Shown: positions 1 to 49,189 of the stretch, one piece after another
How the letters are laid out: each line of letters begins with the position of its first letter
Numbering within the stretch: position 1 is the stretch's first letter
Assembly (NCBI GenBank): GCA_024679065.1
Contig: JAGIQG010000004.1
Location: 54,808,001-54,872,000 of the forward strand
Reading direction: 5' to 3'
Length of the DNA: 64,000 nt
Source of the DNA: Sphyrna mokarran
Taxonomy: Eukaryota
Made by a program: the position numbers and the translations under genes
The notes under the pieces: model-generated
Seen by the model: the letters and a program-made list of their open reading frames with translations, nothing else
Told to the model about the DNA's origin: nothing
The model's database searches: none

Positions 1-57
1 ACGCAAAGGATGAACTGGCTATGATTCATCTACATGACTCAGTACTGCACTTCTGGA

Positions 58-853
58 TATGAGAATACTGTGGCCTTAAGAAATGTATTTATTTCTTATT
101 TCCAAAACAGGCTTTATTTTAGCAGTCAGTTCAACTTTGAATGTAGCCAGTAGCCCCAGTTGTCACTGCAGCAGCAAACTTGTTCTTAGTTGCTAACGTT
201 TTCGTTTTACTTTGGATTAATGCAATTCTGTTATTGCTTTAGTTCTGGAGTTTTTCATGGTAGGGCTTGATTAGCTTGATTGACAGGAACAGTAATGTGA
301 TTGGGAGGCACAATTCTTACACAGACAAATGAGCTCAGTTGTTGTTTTGGACTTCTTGGGAAAGGCAGCTCTCTATGTGTCATTATCTTTTTCTGGATTT
401 AAAGACTGGGATCTGCTAGGAAGTTAGATTATTTCTTTGGAGGGTACCACTTGAGAGATAGAAGAAAAGTTTATTCCTGTAACCGTCCAGAGGCGTTAAA
501 GTGCTGGAAACATAACACCTAGGTGAACCGATTTGTTTATGTGCTTACTTCTGAAGAAGGGTGCATGTCTGTGGGGATATTACTTATTTTTAAACTATAG
601 AGATAGCTAGCTGTTAAGAATTATATCTTATTATGTTTAAATACTTCAAGTGGTAAACGTGTTTTAATTCTTTTTGTTCTGTTTTGACTGCGTTGTAAAT
701 TAAACTTTGATTTAATAAAAAAAATCCTATTGGGTTAAACGAATCATACATGGAGAGAAACAGCTTATGCTCTCCCTAATGCCAAAATCAAAAAGGACAG
801 GGGCTAGTCTAACTTTATAATGTACCATGGACTTTCTGACCTTGTCCCTAACA
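58..853 (+). mobile_element. Solo LTR (Gypsy-like family)
   Basis: Both ends resemble the LTR at 9570-10507; ends ...ccctaaca; flanked by TGGA/TGGC (4-bp TSD, 1 mismatch). Confidence 0.6.
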
Positions 854-2035
854 TGGCGAGCATTTGTGCATTGAGTCACAGGCTATTTGCAGAGATCTTT
901 CAAAAGAGATATTTTTCTTTGATGTGATGGCAGTTGGCCATCATTAGTTCTTCAGACTTAACGGCAAAATATTCAACCGAGAAGATAATTTATAAAACAT
1001 AGTGAAAGGACTTGTTCATATTTTAATCAGTGCATTTTGCTCGGAGATTGTGAAACGAAGTTACTTAAAAGTAACTTCTTTTCAAAAAAGTCAGCCCCTG
1101 TAAATTTGCATAAAATAACACTTGTCCAACTGTCGACAGCCAGACGCAGTAGTCGAAGCCCTTTCATACACCCCAGGGTTTTCAAAGTACCTGTCAAACA
1201 CGTAAGTTTGAATGGAAGCGTGGGAGAGTCTACATACAATTCTCCTCCGTTGCTTTTTCATGTTCGCTGCTCACGAACCTCTCATCAGCAAATATGGGAA
1301 AGAAACAATGTGCAAGTGGAGTAGCAACAAACGCCAGCGGAGTCGGGCTCGGAAATATGAGGCTTAGGGCAAGGGTGCTGAGATCTAGGGAACCAAAGGG
1401 TAGAAACCAGAGAGTCAAGAAGTGGGGTTCGGAGAGAGACAGTCCAGAGATCAAAGGAGCACAAGGCCCATGGACCCAAAGAACGGTGCCAGGGAACCGA
1501 GGACTGTTCAGAAAAGAAGTGGGGCCCCCGAAAGTAGAAGTCCAAGGAACTAACGAAAAGGATCGGGGAACCGAGCATCGTGGAGCCAAGGACAGTGAGG
1601 AAGGCCCAGACAGTGAAAGCGCCGGGGTGCGGGCCAGGGTAAACTTTAGCAGGGAGCATAGGTCCCAGCAAGCCCAAGTGCCAGGGAGTAGTTTCCGGAA
1701 GTCCATTGATGGGCCTGCGTCGCCGACCATAAGGCATCAGGTGTGGGTGCTACTGATGCCTCCGTAAGCAAATGACAGAAGAATATGTGTGCTGTGAGAG
1801 GGAGTTTGAGAGAGAGGGAAGAATGGGGAGGAGAGTTAGTGGAGGAGAGTCAATGTGTGCCGCTGGCGGTGCATGGTACAGAGCATAAGGGGTAGAAAGT
1901 GTAAAGGTGAGCTTGGTGATTTTCAGAGGAAAGGGGTTGGATATCGCTTTAGTGGAAAATGGGGAATGTGAGCGTGTGCGCGCGATTACGAGAAGTGGAT
2001 GAGGGAGGATTATGTGAGCATAATGAGGGTGACAT

Positions 2036-2336
2036 GGGACGGCATGGTGGCATAGTGGTTAGCATTGCTGCCTCACAGTGCCGGGTTCAATTCCAGCTTT
2101 GATGACTGGTGGAATTTGGTTATCCCCATGTCTGTGTGGGTATCCTCTGAATGCTCCGGTTTCCTCCCACACTCCAAATAGGTGACGATTAGGTTGATTG
2201 GCCATACTAAATTGCTCTTTAATATCGAGGGAACAGAAGAGTAAATATATAGCGTTAAATATAGGGCCGCTGTAAGTTGTTGTGGGTGCAGGTACGATGG
2301 GCCGAATGGCCTCCCTCTGCACTAGGGATTCTATGA
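2036..2336 (+). mobile_element. tRNA-derived V-SINE (HE1-like) with CR1-type 3' tail
   Basis: A/B-box head (tggcatagtggttag, ggttcaattcc), V-domain gctccggtttcctcccacac, tail gggccgaatggcctccctctgcact...attctatga. Confidence 0.85.
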
Positions 2337-3804
2337 GAGAATGTAAGACAGTGGAAGACAGTTTGTGTCAGCTTGTGTGAGAGTATTACGGGAGATGAGA
2401 AATAATGTAGGGAGGTATGTTCTTTTGTGGGGAGGCCAAGTTGACGAGGAAGGCAAAGGGGAGGGAAGGGGCAGAGTAGTGGTGGGTGCGGGATCAGATT
2501 ATGCCAATAAGTCTGGCTCACTCCCAGTATTAGGGCTCCCACATATCCTCAACCACAAATACTACAGTGTATTCACATCCAATCTCACAATGAATGAGGA
2601 TGAATGAGTGTACAACTGGAGGCTTGGACTGAGTCAGAAACACAGTTTCATCCTATTGTGATTTAATGTTCATCTTTATTAATTGCTTAAGAAAATTGTT
2701 TCTTCCCTACCTCTATTATTAAAATGCATATTTAAGGTTGTGCCAAAGATTTCCGAAATTTTCTCATTGGCTTATCGAATGAGAAAACAGGTGTCCTTCA
2801 CCGTCCGCGAATAGGTGGGACATGCGTTGTACAAACGAATGAATTGCAAGTGTGCCTTTGACAATCTTTATTTCAAGCTATGCACATAGAGTCAACTTGC
2901 TGCCAAATACATAAAGCGTCTACTTCCTGCCTTAAAAGACAGACAGTGTAGCACTGTCTGCTGCATTAATGATCTTTCGTTGTTTGTTTTTAAAATAGGC
3001 TGTCAGGATTTGGATGTGTGGAGTTTACTTTAAAAAGTCGCATCATAGAAAAGTAGTTCTTCGAAGCAAATAGTGGGGTCTTCAAAACGAAATTGGACAG
3101 ATATCTGAAAAGGCGAAAACGGTGGGGTTTTGAGGAAGAGCTCAAAGTTAATACGAATTGCTATATTCTTTTAAAATATCTACTATACAGACCCGATGGC
3201 TTTCTTTTGTCATGTCGGTTTGTATGATTTCACACGCCCACGTAAGTAGATGCAGGTTTGAATGACGAAGTACAACTACTAGCTACTTTTGTATTTGGTA
3301 GACAGATTTATAAAATCGAGCTCCAGCCGTTTCACATCAAGAGCGTATCGAAGCTGGAAGTCATAATGCAGCAAAGCCAGACATAAAACAATATCCAGGT
3401 TTAACAGTGTCAATCACAAAATGGGTACGATTTGTTATTTTGTAAGAGATCTGTCCACCTTTTTTCTATTATTGTGAGATTTCTTACTGTACCAATGTTT
3501 TTTTCCAGTATTCATAGATGCTGATAGGTATAGCAACGTGATTAGTGTATTATTGCAATGGAAAAAGAAGCGACAGCTCATCAATTAAATAAAACGGATG
3601 TAACCGTAAGGTATGACAGAGTAGCTACCATTTTCTACAAGATAGTTAAAACAATATTCGTCAACAAATCGAAGACTAATTAATAGTGGAAGGCAAAATT
3701 CTCAGAACTATTATTGGAATTATCTTACATCTTGGAAGGATGATATCACACCATTCATACACAGCTGGAATATTAATTGCTACTCGTTTCTTACTTCTGT
3801 ACAG

Positions 3805-3913
3805 CTTGTCTCGGTCATGGCTATTCGTTCTCTCTGCAGCCAGACATACTCCGTGTTGGTTTCATTTTATTGCATTTTCCCTTTTTCTCTGAGTTGGCAT
3901 ACGCAAGAATCGC
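3805..3913 (+). pseudogene. Probable decayed Arg-containing TM exon of an IgSF receptor
   Basis: Acceptor ttacttctgtacag and donor C|gtatgt. Reads (A)CLGHGYSFSLQPDILRVGFIL; restoring 1 nt gives AFSLFL*VGIRKNR. An alternative reading as a leader exon from ATG 3817 exists. Confidence 0.4.
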
Positions 3914-4422
3914 GTATGTCTGCTCGTGTCTTTCTGTCGTGCGTTGTGTGTGTAATATAACAGTATATCTTCTGCCCAAACTATTATCGGAAGATCGCAA
4001 AAATAGCGTTGAAAAACACACATACAAAGTTACCAGAAATATATGCCATTCGTTCTCTTACGATCGTCAACATTAAGTTCATGATTTATAGTTTGTTCTC
4101 ATCTATTACTCATTCATATCGGAGCATAAACGGTTTTCTTATCTTTATGGTTACGTCTCGGAATTTTTCTGGTTTTACTCAAATCTAATACAGCATAATG
4201 CATGATCTCCTCTGTTGCTCTCTGCATAGACCGGAGCGAAAATTTTTGATTCTGTGGCCAGTTTATTTTCTTCTGCAGGTTCCACAGCACTGGGTATAGA
4301 ATAGTCAGATTGACCTGAGCTGAAAAACAATTTCACAAGTGTAATTTGTTTTGATAAGCGAAAAGGCGAATGTTAGCACCCTGGTCATTATATACTCGCA
4401 GAACGCTATTTACATGGGGAAA

Positions 4423-5768
4423 ATAATAATAATCCGAAGAGGACAGGAGCGAAAACGCATCCCTGTTTAACGCCGTTTCTGATTGGGAATGGGTTGGACA
4501 GCTCACCACATATGTGGATGCGACCCTCCATGCCTTCATGAAACTGGCGTATAATTTTGCATAAATGTGGAGGGCAACCAAGTTTCTGTAGGAGTTTCCA
4601 TAAGCCTATCCAAGATGCCAGATTAGAGTCATCAGATTCAGGTGTCTTCTTACAAACCAGGACTGATGGTGGTCTTCTCAATCTCACCAGACTGAAGGCG
4701 AGAACAAAAGTAAGGGACCTAGTGTTACGAGAGCTTCAGTTTGCTGATGACTGTGCCCTAGTAGCGCATACTCTCGAAGATCTCCAAGCGATCACCAACC
4801 GCTTTGCCAGTGCAGCTAAAAACTTCGGATTAACAATTAATCTTAAAAAGACCGAGGTTCTGCACCAGCCAGTTCCTGGATCAAATCGTGAAGAACGATC
4901 TGTGCTCATCGATAACACAAGTCTTAATTCAGTAACCAACTTCTGTTACCTGGGCAGCATGATAACATCCTCCACCTCTTTGGACATGGAGATTGAATCG
5001 CGAATAAATAAAGCTTGCTTTGTCTTTGGACAGCTAAAAAGTCGTGTCTGGTCACAGAACATCAAGATGGCCACAAAGTGCGAAGTATACAGAGCCTTAG
5101 TCATGTCTGCACTGCTCTACGGTTGTGAGACATGGTGTCCATACCAAAGACATTTTCGACAGCTGGACCAACTTCAACAACGACAGTTACGCTCTCTGAT
5201 GAGAATTACATGGAAAGATAAAATAACTAATACTGAAGTTCTCTCCCGAGCTAAAATGCCAGCTGTCTCAACCCTGGTGATGTCTGCCCAATTGCGCTGG
5301 GCAGGACACGTAGTCAGAATGCAGGATGGAAGACTGCCCAAGGACATCATGTACGGCCAACTGTCTAGTGGCACCCGCAAACAAGGAGGTCAGCGGCTGC
5401 GATACAAAGACACTCTGAAAAGGAGCCTCAAAAAAGCTGACATCGACCCATCAACATGGGAAGAAAAGGCCCTAGACCGTGCACAGTGGCGGACCATCAC
5501 AAGAAAGAGCGTCGACGATATAGGAAAAAAGGACCGAGGAGCAGCACTAGAACGACATAGGAAACGCCACAGTGGAACTCCCGCTCCAACACCCACAGCA
5601 GATCTCGCCTGCCAAATATGCGGAAAGCAGTGCCTGTCAAGGATCGGTTTATACAACCACAGCAGAACACACACATCAAACTCCCAAAACAGAACTATCA
5701 GAAAATAAACGAAATGAAGGAAACCATCATCATCCCTTGGGATGGATAGCGATAGTATAGTATAGTAG
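4423..5768 (+). mobile_element. 5'-truncated RTE-clade (BovB-like) LINE with 5' inversion
   Basis: Open RT C-terminal half (LQFADD, FCYLGS, LRWAGHVVRM, terminal CQICGK..HSRTH), (ATAGT)n tail, TSD TACATGGGGAAA at 4411-4422 and 5769-5780; 4423-4610 encodes the preceding RT part on the minus strand. Confidence 0.95.
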
Positions 5769-5899
5769 TACATGGGGAAAGACCACAAAGTTCTGCGGCA
5801 CAGAGGGCCCGAATGTCCTACACACGATTCTTAAAAAGCTGGTGTGCAGGTAAATTATTAGGAACAAAAAATGAATGTTGATTATTATACTGAAGTGAT

Positions 5900-6990
5900 G
5901 CCACGTTAACTTGGTTAAGGGAAGGACAGGATGGGCAGCTTAACATTCTAGGATACAGATGTTTCAGGCGGGATAGAGGAGGATGTAAAAGGAGTGGGAG
6001 AGTTGCACTATTGGTTAAGGAGAATACCGCAACTGCGGCAGAGCAGCTCGGAGGGCTCATTCAGCGAAGTAATATGGATAGAGCTCAAGAGTAGGAAGGG
6101 TGTAATCGCAATGTGGGGATGTAGTTTAGGCCATCCAATTGCCAGCGGGAGATAGAAGAACAGTTATGTAGGCAGATTTTCGCAAGGTGCAAAAGTAACA
6201 GTGTTGTTAAGGTGGGAGATTTTAACTTCCCCAACACTGATTGAGACTCACTTAGTGCTAAAGACATGGGTTGGGTAGAATTTGGAAGGAACATCCAGGA
6301 GGGCTTCTTGGAACAGTGTGTAAATAGTCCAATTAATGAAGGGGGCTGGTTAACGAGACATCACCTCAGTATAACAATCAATGTTCATTTTTTGTTCCTA
6401 ATAATTTACTTGCGCACTAGCTTTTCAAGAATCATGTGTAGAACATTCGAGCCCTTTGTGCCACTGAGCTTTGTAGCCTTTCTCCATGTAACTAACGTTC
6501 TGCGAGTATATAATGACTAACTTAACGTTCTGCGAGTATATAATGCTAACATTCACCTTTTTGATTTTGGGAATGAACTCGGCCAAGTGCTCAATGTAAC
6601 TGTAGCGGAGCATTTCGGCAACAATGAACACAATTCAGAAAGCTTTAAAGTACTGGTGGATAAAGAGAAGTGTAATCCTCAAGTCAAATTGTTAAATTGG
6701 GGCAAGCAACATTAAGCAGAAAATGAAAAATGAAAATTGGAGGCACATGTTTGAGGGTAAATAAACATCTGGCATGTAGGAGGCTTTCAAGCGTAAATGG
6801 ATATGGATTCAGGACCCGCACATTCTTGTAAGGATGTGTTTGGCAAGTTTTGGGAGCCTTGGATAACAGGAGATATTGTAGGCCTAGTCAAAGAGAAAAA
6901 TAAAGCATTTGTCAAGGCTAAGAGGCTGGGAATACACGAAATAAGTTTGAAATACAAGGAAAGTAGAAAGAAACTTAAGCAAAGTAAGGA
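5900..6990 (+). mobile_element. Degenerate CR1 LINE, endonuclease region
   Basis: Recognisable WLREGQD..LNI.GYRCFRRDR and VGDFNFP motifs with stops; interrupted at about 6345-6560. Confidence 0.8.
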
Positions 6991-6994
6991 GGGC

Positions 6995-7860
6995 TGACAG
7001 CTCCAGAATTCTGACAGCTCCAGAATTCAGTGCATGCGCACTCGTCCCGATCTGTCAGATTCCCCTTTTGCTGACTAACCCATTCGTTGGCAGCCCGGGA
7101 CTACCGCAGTGCTGTCCCTCCAATTCCCCATTTCCCCAGTGGCCCAACGCAGCCCTCTCAGCAATTTTCTGGCCAGCCCCGACCGCCAACCCCACCTCCA
7201 GAGCCCCGATGCTCAACACCACCCCCCACCCCCAGCAGTGGCAATCCCCCTACGCTCCTCACCCGGAAGACATCCCGACCCCTCAGGAGTCAGACCCCCA
7301 TCAGGCAACCTCCCTCCTCCCCCCATAGAACACGCCCCACCAGCTTGCCCTAAACGATGCCGTCCCTCCATCTCAGACCGACCCTGTCTGCAGTGTGGCA
7401 GGGAGACCCCCCACCCCACCGAAAGGGGGACCACTCCTCCCCACCGAACTCCCCTAGGCTCCGTCCACAATAGGCCCCTCTCCTTAGCGCTCAATGCCCG
7501 ATGGGCAGTGCCAAGGTGTTCCCCCAGGCATGGGCACTTTGTCTCTTGGGCAGTCTTGGGGACACAGGCTGGTAGTGCCAGTGTGCCCTTGCACAAGGGC
7601 ACCTCCCTCCTACCGCCCGACCGCCTGGTGGGCCCCGAGTTTGCCCACTCCATTAGGCGGGGTTTCCCCCTAGCCCCCTGAACGTGTGGAGCTAGTCTGA
7701 AACTTCCCAGCATGAAGTACTCTTGACGGGGTGGAAGATTCCATCGGGACCTGAACGGTTCTGATAATGAATTAATAAACATATTTTAAACATATTTTAC
7801 AAATATTTAAATTACTTACCTGCCTTCCCGCCGATTTTCAGCATGGTTTGCAGCTCCTCC
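6995..7860. repeat. Unclassified GC/C-rich interspersed repeat
   Basis: Abrupt GC-rich block with C-runs and repeated GGCAGTGCC/GGCAC words; starts with a 17-bp tandem duplication ctgacagctccagaatt; Pro-rich spurious ORFs in several frames. Confidence 0.45.
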
Positions 7861-7999
7861 TGGGTTTTAAATGAGATTCACGACTCTGACCTCTGCAGTG
7901 CACAGATTGCGGAGAGTCAGGTGAGAAGCTGAACTGACAGCACAGCCGGGACTTAGAGCAGTTTTCCTACCAAACCAGCACCTTTGGGGGAATTCCGCC

Positions 8000-10507
8000 T
8001 CCCCATTATTTCTGAACTTCAACATCTTTATCGTCATTGTGTTCTCTCCTCCTGCCTCAAAATGTGACTTTGTGACCTTGTTGGTTGGGAAACTTTCCAT
8101 TATATGATTCATGCAATAGCTCAATTATTTGATTTTTCCACTATTTTTTCAACTACAGTAGGCATTGCTGCCCTCCAGGTGCCTCATTAGGCAGGATAAA
8201 TTGTATTCCTGAAAAAGATAATTTCTTTGTTACTCATATCAGCACTTCAGCTTTTTTCACAGAACTTTCCAGCCTTAACTTAAATAGTGGAACATAGCCT
8301 TTTCACAATGGATTCCATATATAAACAACTTTTGGACAATACTCCTTCTAATCTATATCTCTGCTCATCGCTCACCATTAAAGATTAACTTGTTCCCGTA
8401 TCTCTTAAAGCCTTAATTCATTTACATGCTTCTCCTTGTACAGATGATTAAGTTTTGTACACTCAAGTGAATCATTCAAAGAGATCTGGAACTCGGTTTC
8501 AAACAACCGCTGAGCATCCTTTTTCACATGTTTATCTTCAACCATGATTTCCTTTACCACTTTAACAAAATCCATTGGCTTATCCTCCATCTTTTTACTA
8601 AAACTGCTGTTCAAACGTTCATTTCCTTCTCACATCTATCTTTCTAAAGCAGTTCTTAAGCCACCAACACTGTCATTTTGTCCGTCCAAATTTATTACAA
8701 GGTATCTGAGACTTTTCATTTCTCTTCCATCCTCATATGTTTCCTTTATAAACTGAGGTACGTTATCTTTACTATCACCAACGAAATCACCTTTGCTTTT
8801 ACCACCTGAGATTTTCTGTTTTTGCCAGTTCTTATCCCATGCAGATTAAAATTTGTGTCAAAAAATAAACATTAATTCACGAAACAATGGAAAATCGTCT
8901 GCTATTTTTGCTTCTACTCTTGCAGTTTTATACAATTTGATTCCTAACATTTCAAGTTCGAATTTTCATTCCACTTCCTGATGTCTTAATACTCTTTGTT
9001 CTATTTCTTGCAGTGTTACTCCATCTTTTTATTTTTTGTTCTGCCAGGGCTATTCTGTCCTTTTCCTTGACTTCCATCTCTCGATTTTCTCCCCTGGAAA
9101 TACCACTGTCTCTCTATTTTTTTACTAAAATTACTATTCAAACTGTCTCATTTTCTTCCCATGTTGCAGCTGTCTTAGGTTTTAGTCCTGTTCAAGCTGT
9201 TTCATTATAATGAATTTTAGCCATTTCCAATGAGCTAGACTGTGTTGCTGGCACATGCAAATGTTGAGCTGTCACTGAAATTATCTCTGCATTCCCCGCC
9301 CCTTCACATATAGTCAATCCCAGCTGCACTGCCAATTCCAAAAGCTTTGTTTCAACCACTTCTGGCAAACAACTCCGAGTGACCTCATTCACACCCAGGA
9401 AAACTTCAGCCACTGAAAGAGTTATTACTCCACAAAGCACTCCCTATTTATACAAACTGTATGCATCATCTAAAAAAAACATAACCAGTACTTAACGCCC
9501 ATTGTCTTCGTGTTTAATAATCCTTAGAAAAACAAAGAGTTTTTTAAATCTCAAGCAAGCCTCCAATTTTGTAAGGGACCGGACTAGAATCCCCAAGGTA
9601 GATTTTGAAGTTACACTACACAGCAACTATTTTTATTTTCATATTAGTGTGAGCAAACTTCAGATGCGATTCTATTGAGACACTAGGAAGATTTAACAAA
9701 ACAAACATTATTTTAACAATACACTCTAAATATGATGAATGATTAGCTTTCAAATCTTTGAATGCTTCTGGAGATAGAAAGATAAAAAGACAGCCATCTT
9801 TTGATACTCAAACAGCAGCCTCCTTAGAGGGAATGACTTCTTTATACTTATTCTTGGGGCATGGGTACCACTGGTTTGCCAGCATTTATTGCCCTTGTTC
9901 TGAGGACAGTTGAGAGTCAATAACATTGTGGGTCTGCAGTCACATGGAGACCAAGCCAGGTAAAGATGGCAGATTTCCTTCCCTAATGGAGTTTACTGAA
10001 GCAGATTGTCCTTACCAAAAATTGACAGTTGTTTCACGGTCATCAATAGATTCTTAATTCCAGCTCTATTTTATTAAATTAAAATTCCTCCTGCTGTGTT
10101 AGGATTCAAACCAGGGTCTCCAGAATTTTAACTGCACTTCTGGATTAATATTTTACCCACAGTATCACTAAACAATCGCTTGCTTCTTTCAAAGCCAAGA
10201 AAAAAAAACAGTTGTTATTCTCTGTAAACTCAGCTCCTTCCCTTCACATGCCTTTACCTCTATCAATCAACCTAATCAATCCTTAGTCTGAAGCCCAAGG
10301 GAAGAAAAGCATGAACAAAAATAAATTAGCTCAGGTAAAACCAAACGTCCCATTATATAGGATCAATTATTCTCCTCCATTCTCAGCATGAACCTGTTTG
10401 GTATGATGACAGATCAGCACTAGGTATTGCGGAGTTGGATGTTAAATATACCCTTCACAAGGAGAACAATATAAATACCTTTTTCTTAAAGGGACAGTAT
10501 GATCACA
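8000..10507 (-). mobile_element. Decayed Gypsy-like LTR retrotransposon 5' part (LTR 9570-10507, PBS, gag-like remnant)
   Basis: LTR TGTG...TACA is followed on the minus strand by TGGAGGCTTGCTTGAGAT (degenerate tRNA-Pro PBS) and a broken gag-like frame with an E/R-rich coil; the LTR carries a SINE at about 9840-10180. Confidence 0.6.
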
Positions 10508-10559
10508 GTTCTGAGCTCTAGTCCGTTTCCTAGAAAAATATACCAGCTAGATCAGAGGT

Positions 10560-10858
10560 TATAGAATCACTGCAGTGCAAAAGGAGGCCATTCGGCCCTT
10601 CAAGTCTGCACCGCCAATTATCCCCACCCAGGCCCTATTACTGCAAACCCACATATTTACCCTGCTAACCCGCCGACACTAGGGTCAATCTAGCAAGGCG
10701 AATCCACCTAACCTCTGTATCTTTAGACTGTGGGAGGGAAACCACACAGACACAGGAAGCATATACAAACTCCACACGGGCAGTGACCTGAGGCCGGAAT
10801 TAAGCACAGGGCCCTGGTGCTGTAAGGCAGCGGATCAAACAGTGTCCCGCCATGCCGC
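10560..10858 (-). mobile_element. V-SINE (HE1-like)
   Basis: Reverse complement shows the same head, V-domain and CR1-type tail as 2036-2336. Confidence 0.8.
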
Positions 10859-12439
10859 TCCAATCTAGTCCGTAATTCTATGTATTATTTGAACTCAATA
10901 TTACTCGTTATTCATTTGGGCAAAATGAAACAGGGTGGCGAAATGATTTGGAAAATCTTTAATAAATTGCAGATGTGCAAATATTAAAACAGGGTAGGAC
11001 CTGATTACCATATAGGACTCTTGATTGTTGGATCTGCCTTGGGAACAGATTGACTCTAAATAGCACCATGCATTCCATACAGAATGCCAGTGTATGGAGA
11101 TTGCATGCAGCACATGAGTGTCGGGGCAATATGGAACTCTCGGCACATGGTGATAGAGCATAGAACATAGAACACTACAGCACAAATAGGCCCTTTGGCC
11201 CACAAGTTGTGCCGATCATATCTATACCTAGCAGGCCATAGAACTATCTGTAACTCCCAATGTCATTAAGTCCCATGCAGTCATGTGATGCATGCTGAAA
11301 ACATACAAGCTGCATTAATACTTGATTATTTGTTCCCGTCCTGAGTCAGAGAGCAGAGGCAGGACAACATTTGACAGGATTGTCTAGAAGGCTAATCTTT
11401 TAATGTTTAAAAAACCACACAAGGTGAAAGACAGATATATATTCTACATTTTAAAAGTCATGTAGCTGTTAGGAACGATAATGATAGAATGCACTTGGAG
11501 TACATGGAATAAACTTTAGCTAAACTGCATTTTGCAATGTATTTTATGCTGTGTTGTTTAAGTTACTTCCTAATGTAATGTTGATTCTTACAAACCTCAG
11601 TGATTATTTCAGATATTGTAGGGAAGTTTATTTCCGTAGTTGACGTATTCACGCCTTCTGAAAGGTAATGTGAACTATGTCTCTGACAGGTATTGCATAA
11701 TCCAATGTAGATTGAACACCTGCAAGTCATGTTCCAAAAATGCTAGCACATCACAACTTGGTTTCTTAAGATCACTGAATTCTTTTGAGGTTCTGACGCA
11801 GGCACGGAGATCTCCAGAGAAGAGTTAGTCTGCCTGTAAAATGTACAATTAATATATGCAAATCTTCTCTTCTTTTACATTTCCTTCACTTCCACTTTCT
11901 TCCTCTTCCCTCATTTCCCTTCCTTTCCCTCTTTTTTATTCCCCTCCCTCATTTCCACTCCAATTCTTTCCTGTTTCATCTTCTCCCCTTTTTATTTTCC
12001 TCCTTTACCACCCTATTTACAGAAAGATAACCCACCAATTGTGTTAAAAAATGTTTTATTGATTGTTCTGTGAAAGTGACCAACATTTTCTTGATCGTCG
12101 TGTTGAAGCGAAAATTATTTTTATTTAAAAGAAATTTGGAAAAGTTGAGCTAATTAAATGAAATGTCACTTGCAACTGTTAAAGTTAGATGTTTAGTCAC
12201 ATGTTAACATGATATCAAAGTCTGGCACACATAACATTACTTTCATTAATGAATGCTTTCCATTAAATGTTACAAAATCCTGCAGATGCCTGGTTGAAAC
12301 ATCAAAACGCAACACTTAATATGGAATTCTACAAATGTTGTATTGAAACATCAAAACACATTTCAATATGAGATAATTACAATTGAAGATCATAAGTGAG
12401 ATTTTAAAAATGCAGCAGAATAACAATGATAATTACATC

Positions 12440-14290
12440 GTGGTTTACAAAGAACTACGAACTGTATAACACATGGACAGGTCCTTCCGCCCACCAAACC
12501 TGCCCCTATACATGACGCCTTTCTAAACTAAAAAACTTTTGCTTACATGTGGTCCTTACCTATCTGCTAAAATGCCTCTTAAATATTGCTATTTTTTCTG
12601 CCACTACCATCTCCTCTACAGCTCATTCCTGTCAGTTACCAGCCTCAGTGTAAAACGAATATTTTTCCCATCTCCTTTAAACTGCACCTCTTTTTTCCTG
12701 AAAACTATGTCCACTCATAATTGAAACTTCTATCCTGGGAACAAGACTGACTGCCTATGCCTCTCTAAATTTTGTAAACTACTATCAGAAGGCCTTCGAA
12801 GCTCAAGTGGAAACAAACCAAGTAAGTCCAGCGTCTCATCATACCCTCCAAAACAGGCATCATACTGGTAAACTTTTCTGTACACTCTCCAAATTTTTCA
12901 TGTCCTTCTGATAGTGTGGCAGCCAGAACCTTACATAATATTTCAAATGTGGCCGAACTAAAGTTATGTACGTCAACAATATGACTTCCATATTTTTATA
13001 TTCTAGGTCCCAACTGACTAAGCAAGCTTGCCATAGACCTTCTTGACCAAATTATCCACATGTGTTACCACTCTCAGGGAGCTGGAGATCTATATACTTA
13101 AATCCTTTTGTATGTTAATTCTTCTCAGGGTTTTGCCATTTACTGCATACTTCCCTCCTGCCTTTGACCTTCCAAAATGCATCACCTCATCTTTGTCTAG
13201 GTTAAATTCTATCTGCCATTTCCCCACCCATGTCTCCACCCTATCTATATCCTCTGGCAATCCTCTTCACTATCCACACGCAGCTCCTCCAATTTTTGTG
13301 TCTCCACAAAACAACATTCTCCTCAAAAATATTTATACACATCTAACAAACAACGGGGTCCCAGCACCGATCCCTGTGGACACCACTGGTCATATAAATT
13401 GGATGTAAAATTGGTGTTGTCAGACCTCTTACTGAGTTTACCCCAGTCCAACGCCGGCATCTCTACATCATCACATAACTCAGGTCAGAAAAATACACTT
13501 CCACCATTACTCTCTGTCTTCTATGATGAAGTCAGTTTGCATCCGTCTTACCAACACACCACAGATCCCATGCTGCACCTTCTGTATCAGCCTGCCATGA
13601 GGCATCTTCACAAAGGCTTGATTAAACTCCTTGTAGACATGCCCTCCTCAATCATCTTTGTCACTTACTCAAAAAACTTATTCAGGTTTATGATAGACGA
13701 TCTCCCCAGCACAAAGCATATTCCTATCGCTAATAAGTCTATCTTTTTCCAAATGTAAGTAAATGCTGTCTTTAAATATGCACTCCAATAATTCCGCTAT
13801 CATTGTTGTAAGGATCAGCGGCCTGTAATTTCCTGGATTTTCCCTCTTGCCCTTCTTAAACAAACGATCATCACTGGCTATTCTTCAATCCTCTGGCACG
13901 TCTCCAACGCCCTAGAAATTTCCTCCCTCAGTATTCTGAGATAGATCCTCTTAGGTCCAGTGGCATGTCTAACTTAATGCTTCTCAAAACATCTCAAACC
14001 TGTTCCTTTTTAAATCAACATGTCCTACGATATCAACACGTCGTTCTCTAGACTCATCATCCGCAATGTCCTTTTCCTTTGTGAATACTGATGCAAAGTA
14101 TTCGTTAAGCACAGCACCCACTTTCTCTGCTTCTATGCACAAATGCCTCCTTTGCCCTTGAGTGAATCTATTCTTCCCTTAGCTACCCTCTTGCTCCTTG
14201 TATACATAGATAAGATGGAATTCTCCGTAATCCCATTTGCCAACATGCCATTGCCCCCATTCAGCCATCCAAACTCACTTTTTATGTTCT
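12440..14290 (-). mobile_element. Degenerate CR1 LINE ORF2 (RT to 3' end)
   Basis: FKKGKRENPGNYRPL motif and downstream CR1 RT fragments; a small Penelope end fragment is inserted at about 13395-13470. Confidence 0.85.
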
Positions 14291-14619
14291 TTTCTTAGAT
14301 TTCCAGGGCTCAGAATGTGAACTCTCCTTTCTCACCCTCATGCAGTAAGGTATCCAAATCATGGTCCGATCTTTCTTATTATTATTGGCATTTGCATTTT
14401 CAGTTTCCATAATGTAAATTAGGACAGACAGATACATTTAGACGTGCCACACGTAAAGTTATATAATAATACAACACAGATTTCAGTTGTAGTTTCACAG
14501 ATTTAAAGCAAGTAAAAAAGGCATGATAATTATCTTTAACCATAAAAATAAAGTTTGGAAAAATACACTTTAAGTGAATAAATGACAATAGGATTAACGG
14601 TTCAAAGGACAATCTTCAA

Positions 14620-17160
14620 CATGCCTGTAAGGTACTAGAGTCTTTTGAGCAGTAGTGGTAATATTGGGAAACATATACACCAGAAATCAGGGACGCATGT
14701 TTATAGGAACATAATTATGGGCAATTTGAATCTGTAGAATGATTGGGAGACTCTAATTAATTAACAGTGCAAAAGAGGCGGAAATTCTGGAAAGATGCGA
14801 TTTCCAAACAATGCATTGAGGAATCGATAAACGAACAGACCATCCTGAACAGTGCAATAAGAACTGATAACTTAGCAATCTAGTTGTGAAGGAACGCCTG
14901 GAGATGAGTGACCTTAATTTGATCGAATTCTTTCTCAAGATGGATGGTAACTCAGTTGATCCTGAGATCAGTGTCCTGAATCTCAACAAAGGTAACTATG
15001 GTGGTATGAGACATGAATTGGCACTGATGGACTGGGAAACATTACTGAAAGGAAAGATAGTGAACAGGCAAAAGAACCATTTAAGGAATAAATATGTGAA
15101 ATCCAGAAGTTGTTTATTTCTGTTTTGCACAAGGGTGGTAAGGGAACTGTGACCAAACTATGACTTATAAGGGGAATTAGAAATACTATTAGATCCAAGA
15201 AAGAAGCATACAAATTACCAAGATATATCAATAAACCTCCATTGGAAACAATTTAAAATTCAGCAAAGAAGAGCCAAGGAATTAATTAAGAATGGGAAAC
15301 TGGAGTTTGACGAATGTTAGCGCAGAGCATGAAAACTGACTATAAATGTTTCTCTAGGTATGTAGACAGAAAAATATTGACAAAACTGGATATCAGACAC
15401 TTACAGTCAGAAATGGGAGAATTCATAACGGGGAACAAAGAAATAGCTAAGGAATTAAATCCGTAGTGTGCTTCAGTTTACACAAAGAACGATGTAACAG
15501 GCGTTCTGAGAGAAACAAATATTAGCGAGGAGCAGAAGGAAATCAGCATCAATGGAAACATGGTACTGGGGAAATTGATGATATTGATGGTGGATAAATC
15601 TCAGACCCTGATAATCTTCATCCTGGAATATTTAAGGAAGTGGCCTTGAAGATAGTAAATCGATTGATGATTATTTTGAAAAATTCGAGGGACAACAGAC
15701 TGGAGGGTATCTAATGTAAACCCACTACCCAAAAAAGGAGGCAGAAAGAAAACAGGGAACTATAGACCAGTGAGCCGAACGCCACTAATGAGGAAGTTGT
15801 TAGAATCCGTTACCAAGGATTTCATGACTCAACGTTTGGAAAGCAGTAGTACAATCAGATAAAGTCAGCAGGGATTAACAAAGGGGAAATCATGCTTGAC
15901 GAATCCATTGGCCTTCTTTGAGATTGTAACTAATTGACTAGACCTAGAAGAACCAGGGGCTGTGATTTATTTAGATTTTTTGAAGGCTTTCGGCAATGTA
16001 TCGCATAGCACACTATTATGTAAAGCAAAAGAACATGGGTTGCTGGTAATATCTTGAGATGAATAGAAAACTGGTCAGGATATAGGAAGCAAAGAGTAAA
16101 TGCATCTTTTTCTGATTGGCAGTCAGTGACTAGAGGGATACTGCGAGGATCTATGCCAGCACACCAACTATACATATTGTATATTAATGATTTGGAAGAG
16201 GGAACTAAATGTATTATCTCGCGATTTGCAGATCATACAAAGCTCGGTTGCAAGGTGAGCTGTGAGGAGGATACAGGTTCTCAGGGTGATTTGTGCAGAC
16301 TGTATCTGGGTATATGCATGGCAAATGCAGTACAACATGAATAAATGTGACATTATTCACTTTGTAGCAATAATGGAAAGACCGACTATTACTTGAAGGA
16401 TTGTAACGTGAGAGATATTCAACAGGGCCTTGGTGTCCTTATGGATCAGTCACTGAAAGTAAACATGCAAGTATAGTTAGCAGTGAAACGGGCAATTTGT
16501 ATGTTGTCCTGAATAGCGAGAGAATTTGAGTATAGGAATAGTATATGAAATTATATAGATAGCTGGTGAGGTCACAGCTGGAGTATTGTGCGCAGTTTTG
16601 CTGTGCTTTTTTGAGGAAGGGTGTCTTTGCTTTAAGGGAGTGCCATGAAGGTTTACATTGAAGATTCCTGGGATGGCATGTCTGTCACATGAGGAGAGAT
16701 TATGTCAGTTAAGAATAAGTTCATAAAAGTTTAGAAGCGTAAGAGGGGATCTCATAGAGACTTTAAAAGTGCGAACAGGGTTAGACAGGGCAGATTCTGA
16801 AATAATGTTGCTGATGGTGGTAAATTTCAGTGCTGGAGTCATAGTTTGATGGTAAGGGTAAATATTTTAGAACTAAGGTGAGAAGACATTTCTTCACGCA
16901 AAGGATGGTGGATGTTTGTAATTCACTACGACGGAAAATAATTGAGGTCAAAATTTGTGTGATTTCAAGATGAAATTCGATATAACACCTGGGGCTAAAG
17001 AGTCCAAGGCATATTACGGGGGTTGGGGGCTAGGGGCACGTGGGGACAGGTGCGGGGGATGAAGGGGATATCAGGATATTGAATTTGATGATTAGCCATG
17101 AGTGAAACAGGCTCGAAGGCCCGAGTGGCCTACTCCTGCTTCTAGTTTTCATGTTTGTAT
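14620..17160 (+). mobile_element. Degenerate CR1 LINE ORF2 with 3' tail
   Basis: GNYRPVS, YINDLEEGT..ISRFAD motifs; tail ggcctactcctgcttctagttttcatgtt. Confidence 0.85.
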
Positions 17161-17833
17161 CTGCCCGCCTTTACCTTAACGTTGTTATTTCATAGCATGA
17201 ACTAGGGCGTTCTCAATCTGATCCGTTCGTCGGGGGCTTGGCTGCTCCTCTCTTGCGTCGCACTATCGCTGTAGAATGAAGGCTGCGGTAGCAAACGGGA
17301 GTTTAATGGGATTTTTCAACGCAGGATATTAAATTGGCAAGGAATTCCTGGCGGCTCTTGACTTTCCATCGCAAGATGGAAGGGTGTGTATGCCCTCTCT
17401 CAGTAACTTCTGCTTCCCTCTGAACAGCAGTCACTTAAATGTAACTGAAATTCGTCTGATTAATGACAGCTATTTCCGTTTAATTAATAAATAACAGAAA
17501 TTTAATTTGAGGAAAAAGGTAAGCATTACTTTGTAGAGATCTCATTTCCTATGTAGTGACCGCCTGCAGTTAATAAACTGTACACATTTGAGCACTTATT
17601 TTGTTGGATTTAAAAAAAAAACACTCTTTCCAGCCTTGGCAAATGAAGTCTTACTAACTTACCGCGAGTTAATCAACTAGAAGTGAAGAACCAAAAAAAA
17701 ATGAAGTTGTAGAAAATATCTTTCTACTAAGCCTCTCACGCCAATGTTTAGAACATCCGAAACTATATTCTCTCACACAGATAATTATGGCCTTGTGCTA
17801 CCCTTTGTGAAATTAAGTTACTTTTACTTGCAG

Positions 17834-17872
17834 CTTATGATGGTAAATGTCATGGCCCCTGGACATCTGAAG
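17834..17872 (+). CDS. Putative 39-nt Cys-containing stalk exon (A)YDGKCHGPWTSE
   Basis: cttttacttgcag acceptor, AG|gcgagt GC donor, phase 1-1; the sequence is homologous to the start of the TM exon 290 nt downstream. Confidence 0.45.
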
Positions 17873-18124
17873 GCGAGTGTTTAATTAGATGTACTATCTG
17901 TAAACTAATTGGAAGACAGGGACGATCCAGTTACTCCCTTGTAGTTTTTCCACTTTACATCTCAAAAATAACTTAACGTTCTTTTTAAACGCCCTTCTCT
18001 AAGGGCTGTCGTGCTTAGCTGCTGTAAATATGAACAATAATTCACCCAATCGATTATCGTGAGAGGCGAGAATAAGTAATGCGGAAACAAATAAAAATAC
18101 AGAAGCAGCTATTTTTACTTGCAG

Positions 18125-18235
18125 GTTCTGGTTGTAGATGTCATTACCTCTGGATTTCTAGGTGTGTCATGGGCGGATTGGTATTTCTGGCGCTTATAAT
18201 CGTCACTGGGGTGAAATTGATTTCGAAGAATAAAG
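18125..18235 (+). CDS. Transmembrane exon with intramembrane Arg, putative activating IgSF receptor
   Basis: tttttacttgcag|(G)SGCRCHYLWISRCVMGGLVFLALIIVTGVKLISKNK|gtaacc; 111 nt, phase 1-1, like the TM exon of the inhibitory gene. Confidence 0.7.
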
Positions 18236-18862
18236 GTAACCCACAATTTTGATTCTGAGGCAAATCATCGGGGTGACGATAATGCGCCCTCACATAATTC
18301 CACTTGTCTTTAGAATTAAGAGACCTTTCGGTCCACCCAGACTTAATTGGTTCTTCCCTTATCTCTGTAATTTTACATTTATTTCTTTTGAGATATCAAA
18401 TAAATTTCCTTTTGAATACTTCGATCGAACCTACGTTACCATCCTTTAAGGAAATTCATTCCAGATTCCAACCACCCTTTGAAGGTACAAAATCCTCACG
18501 TAATATCTATTGCTTTACCTATTATTTTGAAACTGTGCCTTGGAGTTTTTGATGTACGCCCGAGGGAGAAGAGTTTCTCACTGATTGCCCAGTCCATACC
18601 CCCGAAGACGTGGGCTCAGTTTAAAAAATCTATACTCATATCATGTTTCCTTAGAATCATTCTTGTGAATTTACCGAGCAGCTCCACATAATAACGATTC
18701 AATTAATGTTTATTTGAAGCAGCAAAAACAGAAATCTTTTGCTCAACCTTCAACTGAATTGAGAATGTTATAATGAAAGAATTGTCACAAATTGCAATGA
18801 ATCATACGATGTGGAAAACACAAATGATGATTTAAGTAAAATGCTGTGAATGTCCTTTCCAG

Positions 18863-18882
18863 TAGATGCACGCGAATGCTGA
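18863..18882 (+). CDS. Putative terminal exon giving a short tail (V)DAREC-stop
   Basis: gtcctttccag acceptor, then an in-phase stop after 6 codons; fits a short-tailed activating receptor but is too short to be certain. Confidence 0.35.
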
Positions 18883-21668
18883 TAAATTCATCGATTCGGA
18901 TTTCCAACAGAGCCCCAAAAATTACTACCTCAATATAACTGCTGATATTAATCCTACTTGATCAGCCTCGAAATGAAGATTGTTCACTTCTTTGTAGAAT
19001 GCAATTCTTTGTTATGGGATCTGAGGATGCTTTATACACTGGTCTATCTAAGAGTTTGTTCCACATATCTTTCTCTCTGGAAAGAGAAAGATCTCAGGCA
19101 TTATTAGTGAAATGATAATTTTTGTTTTGTTTTACCAATGATCCCTGTACTGCCACTCACTGTTAGACATGTGATACTATATATGTAGGGAAATGTAGTG
19201 CTTACATTAGTGATGCAGTAATTCAAAGATGTGGATTCGTAATGCCGAGCAAGTGGGGTAAAGCTTACAATGGACTGTGAGTTTGATTTCAGTTTAAAAA
19301 AATACAAAACATTTTATCAGCAAAAGATTTGTCACCTGAGTGATTAGCATAACATGTTAAGTATAGTTTAATATACTTCGGAGCTGAAAACACGATTTAT
19401 CGCGATCCAGCTTTATGTGACTCCAATCCTAAAATAGTATAGTTAGCTCTTAATAAACAAGTAGTTTGCTTCTTTCTAAGGGCAACGAAGGATGGAGAAT
19501 AAATATCTGCGTCAGCGTTGCCCACGTCCAAATAATAATTAAAGCAAAACTCTGTGGTTTAACGTTTTCTGCATCCTTAGCATTCTCGTGTATTTCCAAA
19601 CAGAAAATGTTTCTTTGCTGTTTAAAATAACAATGTACTAGAGTGTCCACGTTACTCAATACTGTTGCAATGGGAAAGCAGTATTGTCGCTCTTTGAGCT
19701 GTGTTCAACAGATGCGGGAAAAAAATGTCACAACATTATTGATCCACTTTGTAGATCCGATTTGTTTAACATATATTATGTTATTTTGCCTTTGTGATTT
19801 AACATCCAACGGCCTTTCCCATTTCTGCACTTCACTGACTGCTTTGCAACTTGAATTCTATTTCCCTTTGAATTTTATCCGTAGATATTATCAACATAAT
19901 TAACTGATGTTTTTTCTTCATGGTTGTGAAACTCTACTGTCCTCTGCATTGAATTCCCCTGTCATATAAATGCATTGGAAAGCACAAGCATGGAAACTGG
20001 CTAAATATCATAAGCACGAAATGTATTTGAATTGCATTAATCCGTTTATGTGTGAAAATGTAACAATATTGGTAAATTCTTATAATTTATCTAAGGCGAG
20101 GATTTAAATTTATATAAATGTTTTGGAAATTGGAAAATTGAAAAGAAATTGTTTACTACGATTTATTTCATAACAGGTCTTTACCTTTGTTTTATGTCCA
20201 TTGAAATGGTGTTTTGATATGCATTTCATATTTCTTGAGATATAGGTGCAGGTAGTGAAAGGAAGACTGAAAATTACATTGTCCTTTAATTAAGACACAG
20301 ATCTGTAGTAATTTCATGCAAAACATATATTAGTGCAATTATCGAAGCATTGCTTTTGTGAGTTGGCATTGCATGTCTAAGATTTGAGATTGCCCCGAAC
20401 TGTACTCTATCTTTAACACTGAAATGTAGTGAAAATGGGCAGAACGAATTGTCAGTTACAATAGAAGCCCGAAATTCCGGACCTAACATTGCCACATCAA
20501 TATGTATATTAACTATGGTTGATGCATTTTTTAAAGCGATGAAGCACAACTTGTGAGAGCATTGAGAAGATTAACACGTTGTAGGGATGCGCCGCTTGTA
20601 TTTTTGCTACATTAACAATTGTTGTGAAATATGAACCGGACGGGAGGGTTTAGAAAACTAAATAAAGAGAATGCGCATTAGCTTGTCTCGCTGCAGTAAA
20701 TTTAGATGTTAATGATTGCAACATTAAAATGTACCTAATGTTACCTGTCAATATTTATAAGGCTACCGATTCTGCTTACTTGCAGAAACAGACAATATTT
20801 GTCTTAAACGGAAATTCTATACGATGTTTTCCGTTGTAAACTTTTCTAACTCGTGAACAAATGGAAGCTTCAACCATCTCGCCTGAAGAACAAATGGATG
20901 ATCCCTAATCTTTTACTTTCTAATATTATGCTACATGTAGAAGTATGTTCTTAAACACATTTTATGTTGCTCGTTTATTTCTCTATGCACATCTACTAAA
21001 GTCGTGACATTTGCCTTGGTGTGACACACTGAAATGTCATAATGGTAATCAAATTACAGATAATTAGGATTACAGGTAACTGGGAGCACAGCCACGAGAA
21101 ATTTCCTCTCCAAATCACTCATCATCCTGATTTGGAAATACATCGCCATTCATTTTGTCATTGTTTCAAAATCCTGGAGCTCCTTTCCTAACGGCACTGT
21201 GGGTATACTGAGACTCCAGTGATTTACCATGACAGGTCACGACCACCTTCTTAGGGCGTCGTTGGCAATGGGCCGTAAATGCTGGCCGAGATAGAGACAC
21301 CCAAAACCCGTAGATAGATTTTTAAATACGCAATCATTTCATAGAAGGAGGCAAACACCCATCAAGACTTCACAGACACTCCCATAGGGCATCCCACAGA
21401 CAGTAACCCAAGGCCAGAATCGAATTCGGGTGGGCACTGTGAGGCAGCAGTGTTAGCCACTGTGCCAGCGTTCCGTCTTTTTTCAGATGACAAAAGAAAT
21501 GTTGCATTTGTGCAAATTTTACTCAATCGCCTTTCCATTTCAACAATTTTTGCGAATGCCAACTAATGTTGCCCAAGAACTATGTGTGAAAAAAAACATG
21601 TTTGATGGGATGTGTTGCTGTTCAGCTTCATCCGCAGCGTGATCCTTGCACAGGTTCGAAAAGAATTG

Positions 21669-26620: not shown

Positions 26621-27357
26621 GAGGAAAACATCTGCAGCCATTGAACTGGGAATTGTCGGATTGGCCTCACTGGTAGAATTAAAGACAACTGAGGCACCTT
26701 CGCCAAGCAAACGGCAAAGGAGACGGCGGGAGGCATGCCCTTTAGGCAATGCCAGCCTCAATCAGGAACTCTCCCATTTTTACACTAGCTGGACAGTCAG
26801 AATCATTCTCGTAAAATTCCTCCCGCTGTCTCTGTTCTCTCACTGTAATTTGTTTCCCCTGTGCAGCCGTGTTTGCTGTGCAACTTTCTCAGTGAAAGCT
26901 TCCGCCATTTAACTTACTCCAAGTCGTAAATACATGGTGAACAATGTTGTTAGTGCATTCTGACTGGCCTAACTACGGCAAGGCTAATATTCAATTGGCT
27001 TAAGGCGTGCGTAATTGGTGTGTGATTGGTGAAAGAAAATAAGATCAGTTTCTCATTGATTTCTTGAAAGTGATACAATTTCCCATTTTTCAATGATTGG
27101 CCCACTTGTAAATGACAGAAACATTAGTTAAATTGATCTCAGACCCAAAAGTACAAGTCTAGCTTGGATCACTGACTTTTAATGGAGAGAGGGATGATAA
27201 AATAAATGGAGAACAGGAGAATTAAAAGGGATCAAATTCCGAAAAATGTAACAATATTTTTTCACTTGACGCCATTGTTTTCAGTGCACATGGATGAATA
27301 CCCAGTTTTTGTCTCCTTTTAGCGACAAGGTATTAGCAACACATAATATTTTGTTAT

Positions 27358-48600: not shown

Positions 48601-48602
48601 GA

Positions 48603-49185: not shown

Positions 49186-49189
49186 CCCA

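What the first reader, a model, noticed from the sequence alone, without database searches (positions are those of the whole stretch)
17834..18882. Activating counterpart: Arg-in-TM, Cys-stalk, short-tail exons facing the inhibitory gene tail-to-tail
Seen: a phase 1-1 TM exon (HYLWISRCVMGGLVFLALIIVTGVK) with an Arg near the outer leaflet, extracellular Cys residues and an apparent tail of about 12 residues without tyrosine motifs. It lies on the opposite strand 19 kb from the ITIM gene. Known: a TM Arg at this position recruits FcR-gamma/CD3-zeta in NKp30, NKp46 and LILRA. Inference: the locus is a paired activating/inhibitory receptor family. No V or C1 exon for it is visible in 1-17800, so its ectodomain lies upstream of the window or has been deleted.
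Basis: partly seen in the sequence, partly recalled or inferred. Interest (0 to 1): 0.75.

Follow-up and report, generated by a model that had tools for sequence, protein, structure and literature searches.

The report
Headless shark activating immune receptor gene
These exons are the membrane-anchoring end of a shark immune receptor gene whose relatives come as likely 'on' and 'off' twins with almost identical outer parts, but its front half is missing from this window and the neighbouring inhibitory gene is not its twin.

Summary
The transmembrane (TM) exon (18125-18235, phase 1-1, Arg codon 18160-18162) and the tail exon (18863-18882) are real. They match the end of a predicted Mustelus asterias V-C1 receptor, XP_078067247.1: 29/36 residues over the TM exon, 4/6 plus the stop over the tail exon. 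In Mustelus and catshark this Arg/short-tail protein has an ITIM-bearing twin with a 98% identical ectodomain (206/211, 207/211), so the family is a paired receptor family by sequence. Corrections: (1) the ITIM gene at 37-44 kb is another subfamily (V 46%, C1 48% identical to the orthologue), not the twin. (2) The 'Cys stalk' is lineage-specific: 17834-17872 is a partial duplicate of the TM exon, absent from the orthologue models. (3) No V or C1 exon for this gene lies in the window. A second headless remnant, an ITIM tail on the minus strand (3082-4403), points away from it, so one deletion or mis-join between them may explain both. (4) The adaptor is untested; the NxxR motif of FcRgamma partners is absent. 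Expression could not be checked. Verdict: new member of a known kind.

The parts
17834..17872 (+). Partial duplicate of the TM exon's 5' end; possible 13-codon cassette exon, phase 1-1, GC donor
   Evidence: 38/48 nt identical to 18107-18154; 3-6 of 12 residues match the TM-exon start of five relatives; donor score; absent from orthologue models
18125..18235 (+). Transmembrane exon, phase 1-1, Arg type
   Evidence: 29/36 identical to Mustelus XP_078067247.1; family TM profile E 1.9e-10
18160..18162 (+). Arg codon (AGG) at the column where the inhibitory twins have Gly
18863..18882 (+). Coding part of the terminal exon: completes a 13-residue Tyr-free tail, then stop
   Evidence: unique match among 3714 YAG sites to the orthologue's C-terminus
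18883..19543 (+). Putative 3' UTR with poly(A)-signal hexamers at 19452, 19498 and 19538 (inferred)
   Evidence: motif scan; no transcript data
3082..4403 (-). Headless ITIM-tail remnant of a second family gene: intron end, cytoplasmic exon 4221-4114 with two Tyr motifs and a stop, frameshifted last exon, 3' UTR
   Evidence: tblastn E 7e-7; nhmmer homology to 38065-36711
4404..17833 (.). Interval between the two remnants, where both missing front halves would lie; holds retroelement-like fragments, no V or C1
37424..43584 (-). Neighbouring leader-V-C1-TM-3 cytoplasmic-exon ITIM gene of another subfamily (L 43584-43530, V 43374-43054, C1 41339-41028, TM 39468-39367, cyt 38639-38596, 37882-37811, 37588-37424)

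Best explanation
These exons are the 3' end of the shark orthologue of a Mustelus V-C1 receptor with a membrane arginine and a short tyrosine-free tail, the likely activating half of a twin pair, and in this assembly the gene has likely lost its V and C1 exons. SHOWN: exon identity and orthology; twins in Mustelus and catshark with about 98% identical ectodomains but Gly/ITIM versus Arg/short tail; no V or C1 for it in the window. INFERRED mechanism of the intact receptor: the V domain binds the same or a similar ligand as the inhibitory twin; with no motif of its own, it pairs through the TM Arg with an acidic TM residue of an ITAM adaptor of the CD3zeta/FcRgamma type and activates a leukocyte, balancing the twin's ITIM signal; gene conversion keeps the ectodomains alike. 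INFERRED state here: it and the ITIM-tail remnant at 3082-4403 were head-to-head genes, and one fairly recent deletion of the middle removed both front halves. Odds: identity and orthology about 0.9; activating role in relatives about 0.75; state in this genome: real loss about 0.45, intact with distant 5' exons about 0.3, mis-assembly about 0.2.
For: Orthologue P0165: TM exon 29/36, 28/31 from the His onward, against 14/36 for its ITIM twin P0184; tail exon unique match. Twins: P0165/P0184 206/211 and P0166/P0186 207/211 over the ectodomain, but 18/36 and 23/36 over the TM exon; across species ectodomains are 161-164/211. P0184, P0186 and P0188 carry 2-3 ITIM-like motifs; P0165, P0166 and P0187 carry none. 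Family-wide, Arg stands at this column in 16 of 87 proteins with a TM hit (of 135 examined); 0 of 16 Arg-type against 33 of 71 others have two or more ITIM-like motifs (Fisher p 3e-4; for one or more, 3/16 against 43/71, p 0.004). Missing ectodomain: V and C1 profiles find only the neighbour gene. Ectodomain queries give nothing below E 0.47 outside it, while planted copies decayed by 20% were found in 18/20 (V) and 20/20 (C1) trials. The two remnants point away from each other, each lacking what would lie between them. The neighbour's C1-TM intron is 1559 nt, against more than 17.8 kb needed here. N-terminal TM Arg with FcRgamma association is shown for Xenopus XFL and cited for LILRA2, NKp46, GPVI, OSCAR and FcalphaR (PMC2413239, passages).
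Against: All relatives are gene predictions, many truncated and not independent, so the Fisher p is optimistic. Three Arg-type proteins carry one ITIM-like match. NxxR is absent from the orthologues P0165, P0166 and P0187; only 2 of 17 Arg-type proteins checked have it. PMC4016189 reports no FcRgamma chain in shark data. The Arg is at the edge of the helix. The TM exon looks conserved, not decaying: 3 conservative changes in 31 codons against about 9 expected if neutral since the duplication (P 0.02-0.19 depending on the assumed rate; rough), splice sites intact; this fits an intact gene as well as a recent loss. At 30% decay the V control fell to 7/20. The catshark Arg-type TM is as close to its own twin as to P0165 (23/36 each), so a single origin of the Arg type is weakly supported.
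Confidence: 0.6

Rival explanations
1. The gene is intact: leader, V and C1 lie upstream of the window, across an intron of more than 17.8 kb swollen by retroelements and holding the antisense ITIM-tail remnant.
For: Intact splice sites, stop and tail; TM core 28/31 identical to the orthologue; poly(A) hexamers downstream; retroelement-like fragments upstream.
Against: The neighbour's equivalent intron is 1559 nt and none of its introns exceeds 1714 nt. The headless tail at 3082-4403 then needs a separate event.
Confidence: 0.3
2. Assembly artefact: near-identical ectodomain blocks of the twins collapsed, or the contig was mis-joined at a retroelement, leaving the unique TM and tail exons behind.
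For: Twins in relatives are 98% identical over V-C1 at protein level, the kind of duplication that assemblers collapse (general knowledge). Two headless remnants flank a repeat-bearing interval.
Against: The window has no N gap. The tail remnant is of the neighbour's subfamily, has a frameshifted last exon and is cut at a nest of retroelements, which looks like real decay.
Confidence: 0.2
3. The Arg is not an adaptor-docking residue; these are non-signalling decoy receptors, or the Arg just marks the membrane boundary.
For: No NxxR; Arg at the helix edge; FcRgamma reported missing from shark data in 2014; SIRPgamma is a precedent for a non-signalling family member (PMC3533184, passages).
Against: Arg replaces Gly at one column and goes with loss of the ITIM tail across sharks and rays. 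Six members have an Arg, 16 residues, then Asp/Glu-His layout, which resembles FcRgamma-binding receptors (recalled).
Confidence: 0.2
4. The TM exon and the ITIM tail at 3082-4403 are halves of one inhibitory gene split by an inversion, and the Arg is an incidental Gly-to-Arg change.
For: Opposite strands, complementary parts; inverted retroelement copies flank the TM region (15908-17009 against 24222-23156, 70% identical); AGG is one base from a Gly codon.
Against: The TM exon has its own orthologous tail exon and stop 627 nt downstream. The Arg is shared with Mustelus and catshark. The tail's best matches are in the other subfamily. No linking cytoplasmic exon was found.
Confidence: 0.03

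Closest known systems
Mustelus asterias XP_078067247.1 (P0165) and Scyliorhinus canicula XP_038662022.1 (P0166), RefSeq predictions named SIRP-like
   Same: TM exon 29/36 and 19/36 identical; same Arg; tail exon and stop match P0165
   Different: They have leader, V and C1 and lack the duplicated mini-exon and the two Cys at the TM-exon start
Mammalian SIRP family (SIRPalpha, beta, gamma)
   Same: Joined-VJ-type V plus C1, inhibitory and activating members; SIRPalpha and gamma are the best PDB sequence hits for the neighbour's C1 and 2nd and 6th for P0165
   Different: One C1, not two (SIRPalpha has three Ig domains; PMC2785349, listing abstract). SIRPbeta uses DAP12 through a mid-membrane Lys (recalled); here an N-terminal Arg. 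Orthology and CD47 binding not shown
FcRgamma-associated receptors: LILRA2, PIR-A, NKp46, GPVI, OSCAR, FcalphaR, Xenopus XFL TM1
   Same: Arg at the N-terminal end of the TM, short tail, pairing with ITIM forms (PMC2413239)
   Different: They carry NxxR and LRC members have C2 domains; this exon has no NxxR and the family is V-C1
NKp30/NCR3, PRARP, UrIg (non-rearranging VJ-domain genes of sharks and other vertebrates)
   Same: Germline-joined VJ-type V exon, GxG[TS]xLxV present
   Different: NKp30 has one V domain (recalled); UrIg2 has many C1 domains (PMC12227049, passages); MHC linkage untested here

Membership tests
Chondrichthyan V-C1 'SIRP-like' family (RefSeq predictions) | Phase 1-1 TM exon matching the family profile | tested here: met
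   36.1 bits, E 1.9e-10; 29/36 to P0165
Chondrichthyan V-C1 'SIRP-like' family (RefSeq predictions) | V and C1 exons linked to the TM exon | tested here: inconclusive
   Absent from the window; upstream sequence not available; present in the orthologues
Paired receptors | Very similar ectodomains with opposite signalling ends | tested here: met
   In relatives: P0165/P0184 206/211, P0166/P0186 207/211; Arg/short against Gly/ITIM
Paired receptors | The ITIM gene at 37424-43584 is this gene's twin | tested here: not met
   V 46%, C1 48% identical to P0165; groups with P0001, 100/99
Paired receptors | Shared ligand and opposite signalling shown by experiment | not testable with these tools
   No functional data
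SIRP (mammalian) | Joined VJ-type V domain and C1-set domain | tested here: met
   Pfam V-set (21.6 bits, below the cut-off of 26) and C1-set (44.1 bits) in the neighbour; J-like motif
SIRP (mammalian) | Three Ig domains, V-C1-C1 | tested here: not met
   P0165 and P0184 are V-C1 only
SIRP (mammalian) | Activating member has a mid-membrane Lys for DAP12 (residue recalled) | tested here: not met
   No charged residue in the 16 positions after the Arg
SIRP (mammalian) | CD47 binding; conserved synteny | not testable with these tools
   No genome held
FcRgamma-associated LRC/XFL TM1 receptors | Arg at the N-terminal end of the TM and a short tail | tested here: met
FcRgamma-associated LRC/XFL TM1 receptors | NxxR motif | tested here: not met
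   Trp stands three residues before the Arg in the window exon and P0165; 2 of 17 Arg-type relatives have NxxR
FcRgamma-associated LRC/XFL TM1 receptors | Physical association with FcRgamma or CD3zeta | not testable with these tools
NKp30/NCR3 | Single VJ domain without C1 (recalled) | tested here: not met
   The orthologue is V-C1

The most novel reading that the evidence does not exclude
Cartilaginous fish carry a large, undescribed cluster of non-rearranging VJ-C1 receptors that form activating/inhibitory twin pairs, homogenised by gene conversion and with activating Arg forms arising repeatedly on inhibitory scaffolds. This would be an antigen-receptor-like analogue of KIR/LILR signalling through CD3zeta, and this window catches its birth-and-death in progress: a deletion that beheaded an activating and an inhibitory gene at once, and a new Cys-bearing stalk exon made by exon duplication.
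Probability: 0.35. Interest if true: 0.7.

Novelty: new member of a known kind. Interest (0 to 1): 0.42.

Why it matters
Sharks were reported to lack LRC-type C2 receptors and classical Fc receptors (PMC4016189, passages), so what balances activation and inhibition on their innate leukocytes is an open question. Twin V-C1 receptors that differ only in TM and tail are direct candidates, and full-length pairs exist as predictions in two species (P0165/P0184, P0166/P0186), so adaptor use and ligand sharing can be tested now. The VJ-C1 layout also bears on antigen-receptor origins (PMC10751288, passages). The copy in this window matters less: it is partial, and its orthologues are already annotated automatically.

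Tried and rejected
No whole genome is held, so the upstream sequence could not be searched. No RNA holder was listed for 17700-20200; this is no evidence either way, and no reads were laid. A word-index search with the TM exon found nothing among 17 candidates, though P0165 is in that collection: that blank was insensitivity. Direct BLASTP of the two window TM exons gave no alignment; the homology shows through relatives and in DNA (E 1e-5 to 7e-5). Rfam: none. A metagenome scan gave one unrelated Ig-domain locus, 30% identical. A scan for a linking cytoplasmic exon found only the neighbour's among 26 candidates. A leader-like match at 11563-11601 (E 0.57) was treated as chance. The first power control had a faulty hit criterion and was replaced; its translated repeat-cover estimate (44%) was dropped as noisy, and the DNA self-match estimate is 18% for 4404-17800, a lower bound. 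The inversion-split idea was rejected (see rivals). No structure or complex prediction was run: no shark adaptor sequence was available. Four look-ups of earlier findings returned nothing. Ten literature searches listed no paper describing this family, judged from titles and abstract starts. A paper I recall on shark non-rearranging VJ receptors was not held under the DOI I recalled, and subscription papers on VJC1 genes and shark NCR3 (recalled) could not be read, so prior description cannot be excluded. No supplements were read.

Full report
1. Observation. The sequence shows an AG/GT-bounded, 111-nt, phase 1-1 exon at 18125-18235 (+) with an open frame, a hydrophobic stretch and an Arg codon at 18160-18162. 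A TM profile from 70 family proteins, built without this exon, scores it 36.1 bits (E 1.9e-10) in the six-frame window; the neighbour gene's TM exon scores 26.6 and the best background hit 4.4. The terminal exon at 18863-18882 completes a 13-residue tail without Tyr. The 39-nt segment at 17834-17872 has a good acceptor and an in-phase GC donor close to consensus; 8 of 127,982 positions carry a GC donor that scores as high, using a crude matrix of recalled frequencies. It is a copy of the TM exon's 5' end, 38/48 nt identical.

2. Family. The minus-strand neighbour is a leader-V-C1-TM gene with three cytoplasmic exons and Tyr motifs. Its V domain found two shark proteins named SIRP-like. An HMMER search with one of them reported 1082 hits and listed the best 150. 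The named ones are automatic annotations from sharks, rays and chimaera. I infer that the window comes from a shark near Mustelus, from the 64-88% exon identities to P0001.

3. Orthologue. A profile search from a 19-row alignment returned 45 proteins, among them Mustelus asterias XP_078067247.1 (P0165), a 274-residue leader-V-C1-TM protein. It matches the TM exon at 29/36, and 28/31 from the His onward; four of the seven differences sit in the first five codons. Its last six residues match the tail exon at 4/6 with the stop in place, the only such site among 3714 YAG acceptors in the window. Catshark P0166 and P0187 keep the Arg and a short tail. These models join C1 directly to the TM exon, without the mini-exon or the two Cys at the exon's start. 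Both window copies share a Cys where the relatives have Tyr, so I infer that the duplication came after the split from Mustelus. The Cys-rich stalk is therefore lineage-specific; it may be spliced, but it is not a family feature.

4. Pairing. The 90%-identity clusters of P0165 and P0166 hold longer proteins, P0184 and P0186. Their ectodomains are 206/211 and 207/211 identical to the Arg forms, their TM exons only 18/36 and 23/36, with Gly at the Arg column, and they carry 3 and 2 ITIM-like motifs against none. Between species the ectodomains are 161-164/211 identical, while the two Gly-type TM exons are 28/36 alike. Ectodomains thus sort by species and inhibitory TM exons by type, the pattern expected from gene conversion between old twins (inference). 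Against a neat picture, the catshark Arg-type TM is equally close to P0165 and to its own twin (23/36). A C1 tree of 46 rows that I chose from the proteins fetched also joins Arg and ITIM forms in other subfamilies: P0024/P0162, both Heptranchias (100/100), and P0022/P0036 (99/92); three further pairs span different species and two of them are not starred. Of 135 proteins up to 500 residues examined (longer ones and seven cluster-mates left out), 87 had a TM hit; 16 have Arg at this column and 38 Gly. None of the 16 against 33 of the other 71 has two or more ITIM-like motifs (p 3e-4); for one or more it is 3/16 against 43/71 (p 0.004). These are predictions, often truncated and related, so the p values overstate the case.

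5. The facing gene is not the twin. Its V and C1 are 46% and 48% identical to P0165, and its C1 groups with Mustelus P0001 at 100/99. The true twin is not in the window.

6. Where is the ectodomain? Family V and C1 profiles find only the neighbour. Ectodomain queries from P0001, P0165 and P0184 give nothing below E 0.47 in 1-36000 or 44001-64000. Planted exons decayed by 10, 20 and 30% were recovered in 20, 18 and 7 of 20 trials (V) and 20, 20 and 16 of 20 (C1). A second remnant lies at 3082-4403 on the minus strand: intron end, a cytoplasmic exon with two Tyr motifs and a stop, a frameshifted last exon and 3' UTR, all homologous to the neighbour's 3' end, and cut off at nested retroelements. 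It has no TM, linking exon, V or C1 of its own. The two remnants point away from each other across 13.4 kb, and each lacks what would lie in the middle. One deletion, or one mis-join, explains both. An intact gene would need an intron over 17.8 kb where the neighbour has 1559 nt. Yet the TM core has only 3 conservative changes in 31 codons, fewer than the roughly 9 expected under neutrality since the duplication (P 0.02-0.19; rough), so any loss is recent. I put real loss at 0.45, an intact gene at 0.3 and mis-assembly at 0.2. No genome was held and no RNA holder was listed.

7. Mechanism (inferred). The intact receptor would bind ligand through its V domain, as its twin does, and signal through an ITAM adaptor docked on the TM Arg. 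The precedent is FcRgamma association of receptors with an N-terminal TM Arg, shown for Xenopus XFL and cited for LILRA2, PIR-A, NKp46, GPVI, OSCAR and FcalphaR (PMC2413239, passages). Those carry NxxR; this exon and its orthologues do not, and 2 of 17 Arg-type relatives do. The Arg sits at the edge of the hydrophobic stretch. A 2014 survey found no FcRgamma chain in shark data (PMC4016189, passages); that rests on early drafts (my reading), and a search for newer statements listed nothing. CD3zeta is then the more cautious guess (its presence in sharks is recalled). A decoy role remains possible.

8. Comparison and novelty. It works like paired receptors of the SIRP and LILR kind. It is not filed as a SIRP (one C1, no mid-membrane Lys), an LRC/XFL receptor (no NxxR, V-C1 domains) or NKp30. 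Papers seen as passages: PMC12227049, PMC11599192, PMC10751288, PMC2413239, PMC13262535, PMC4016189, PMC3533184; PMC2785349 only as a listing. Ten searches listed no paper on this family, but work on VJC1 genes cited as Ohta et al. 2019 was not read, and no supplements were seen.

9. Verdict. Real exons, correctly read as the activating type; wrong partner; stalk not conserved; gene incomplete in this window. New member of a known kind. Interest 0.42, carried mostly by the twin pairs in relatives.

Noticed in passing
window 43584-43530 (-): The neighbour ITIM gene's leader exon ends in a GC donor with poor consensus; its V and C1 also depart from the family at core positions (Ser for Phe before the first V Cys region, Ile for Tyr before the second C1 Cys). 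It may be decaying too.
   Followed up: partly
window 43938-43789 (-): Upstream stretch 68% identical to the first 50 residues of the Mustelus model P0001, which do not look like a signal peptide; probably conserved 5' sequence misread as coding in that model.
   Followed up: no
window 37882-37811 (-): This ITIM exon of the neighbour is missing from the Mustelus model P0001: skipped or lost there.
   Followed up: no
window 4420-5780: A LINE reverse-transcriptase ORF (4542-5708, +, 388 codons) is inserted, with an apparent 12-nt target-site duplication read, into the 3' end of another retroelement just upstream of the ITIM-tail remnant.
   Followed up: partly
window 18863-18865: NAGNAG acceptor: a second AG three bases downstream gives the same frame, one residue shorter.
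   Followed up: partly
window 50650-51213: Perfect tandem duplication of 281-283 nt of retroelement-like sequence: very recent, or an assembly duplication.
   Followed up: no
window 27355-30146: Two tandem, 75% identical retroelement blocks of about 1.4 kb, with further copies at 48604-49129 and 50537-51687.
   Followed up: no
P0023, P0024, P0037, P0043, P0052, P0065: A second Arg-type TM class in the family: Arg, 16 residues, then Asp/Glu-His, distinct from the Gly-to-Arg class of this exon.
   Followed up: partly
P0058, P0184: Family models with duplicated TM-plus-tail (P0058) or duplicated ITIM exons (P0184): exon duplication at the 3' end recurs in this family.
   Followed up: no
window 11614-11665 (+): Short AG/GT-bounded open segment read by eye; no family match.
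   Followed up: no
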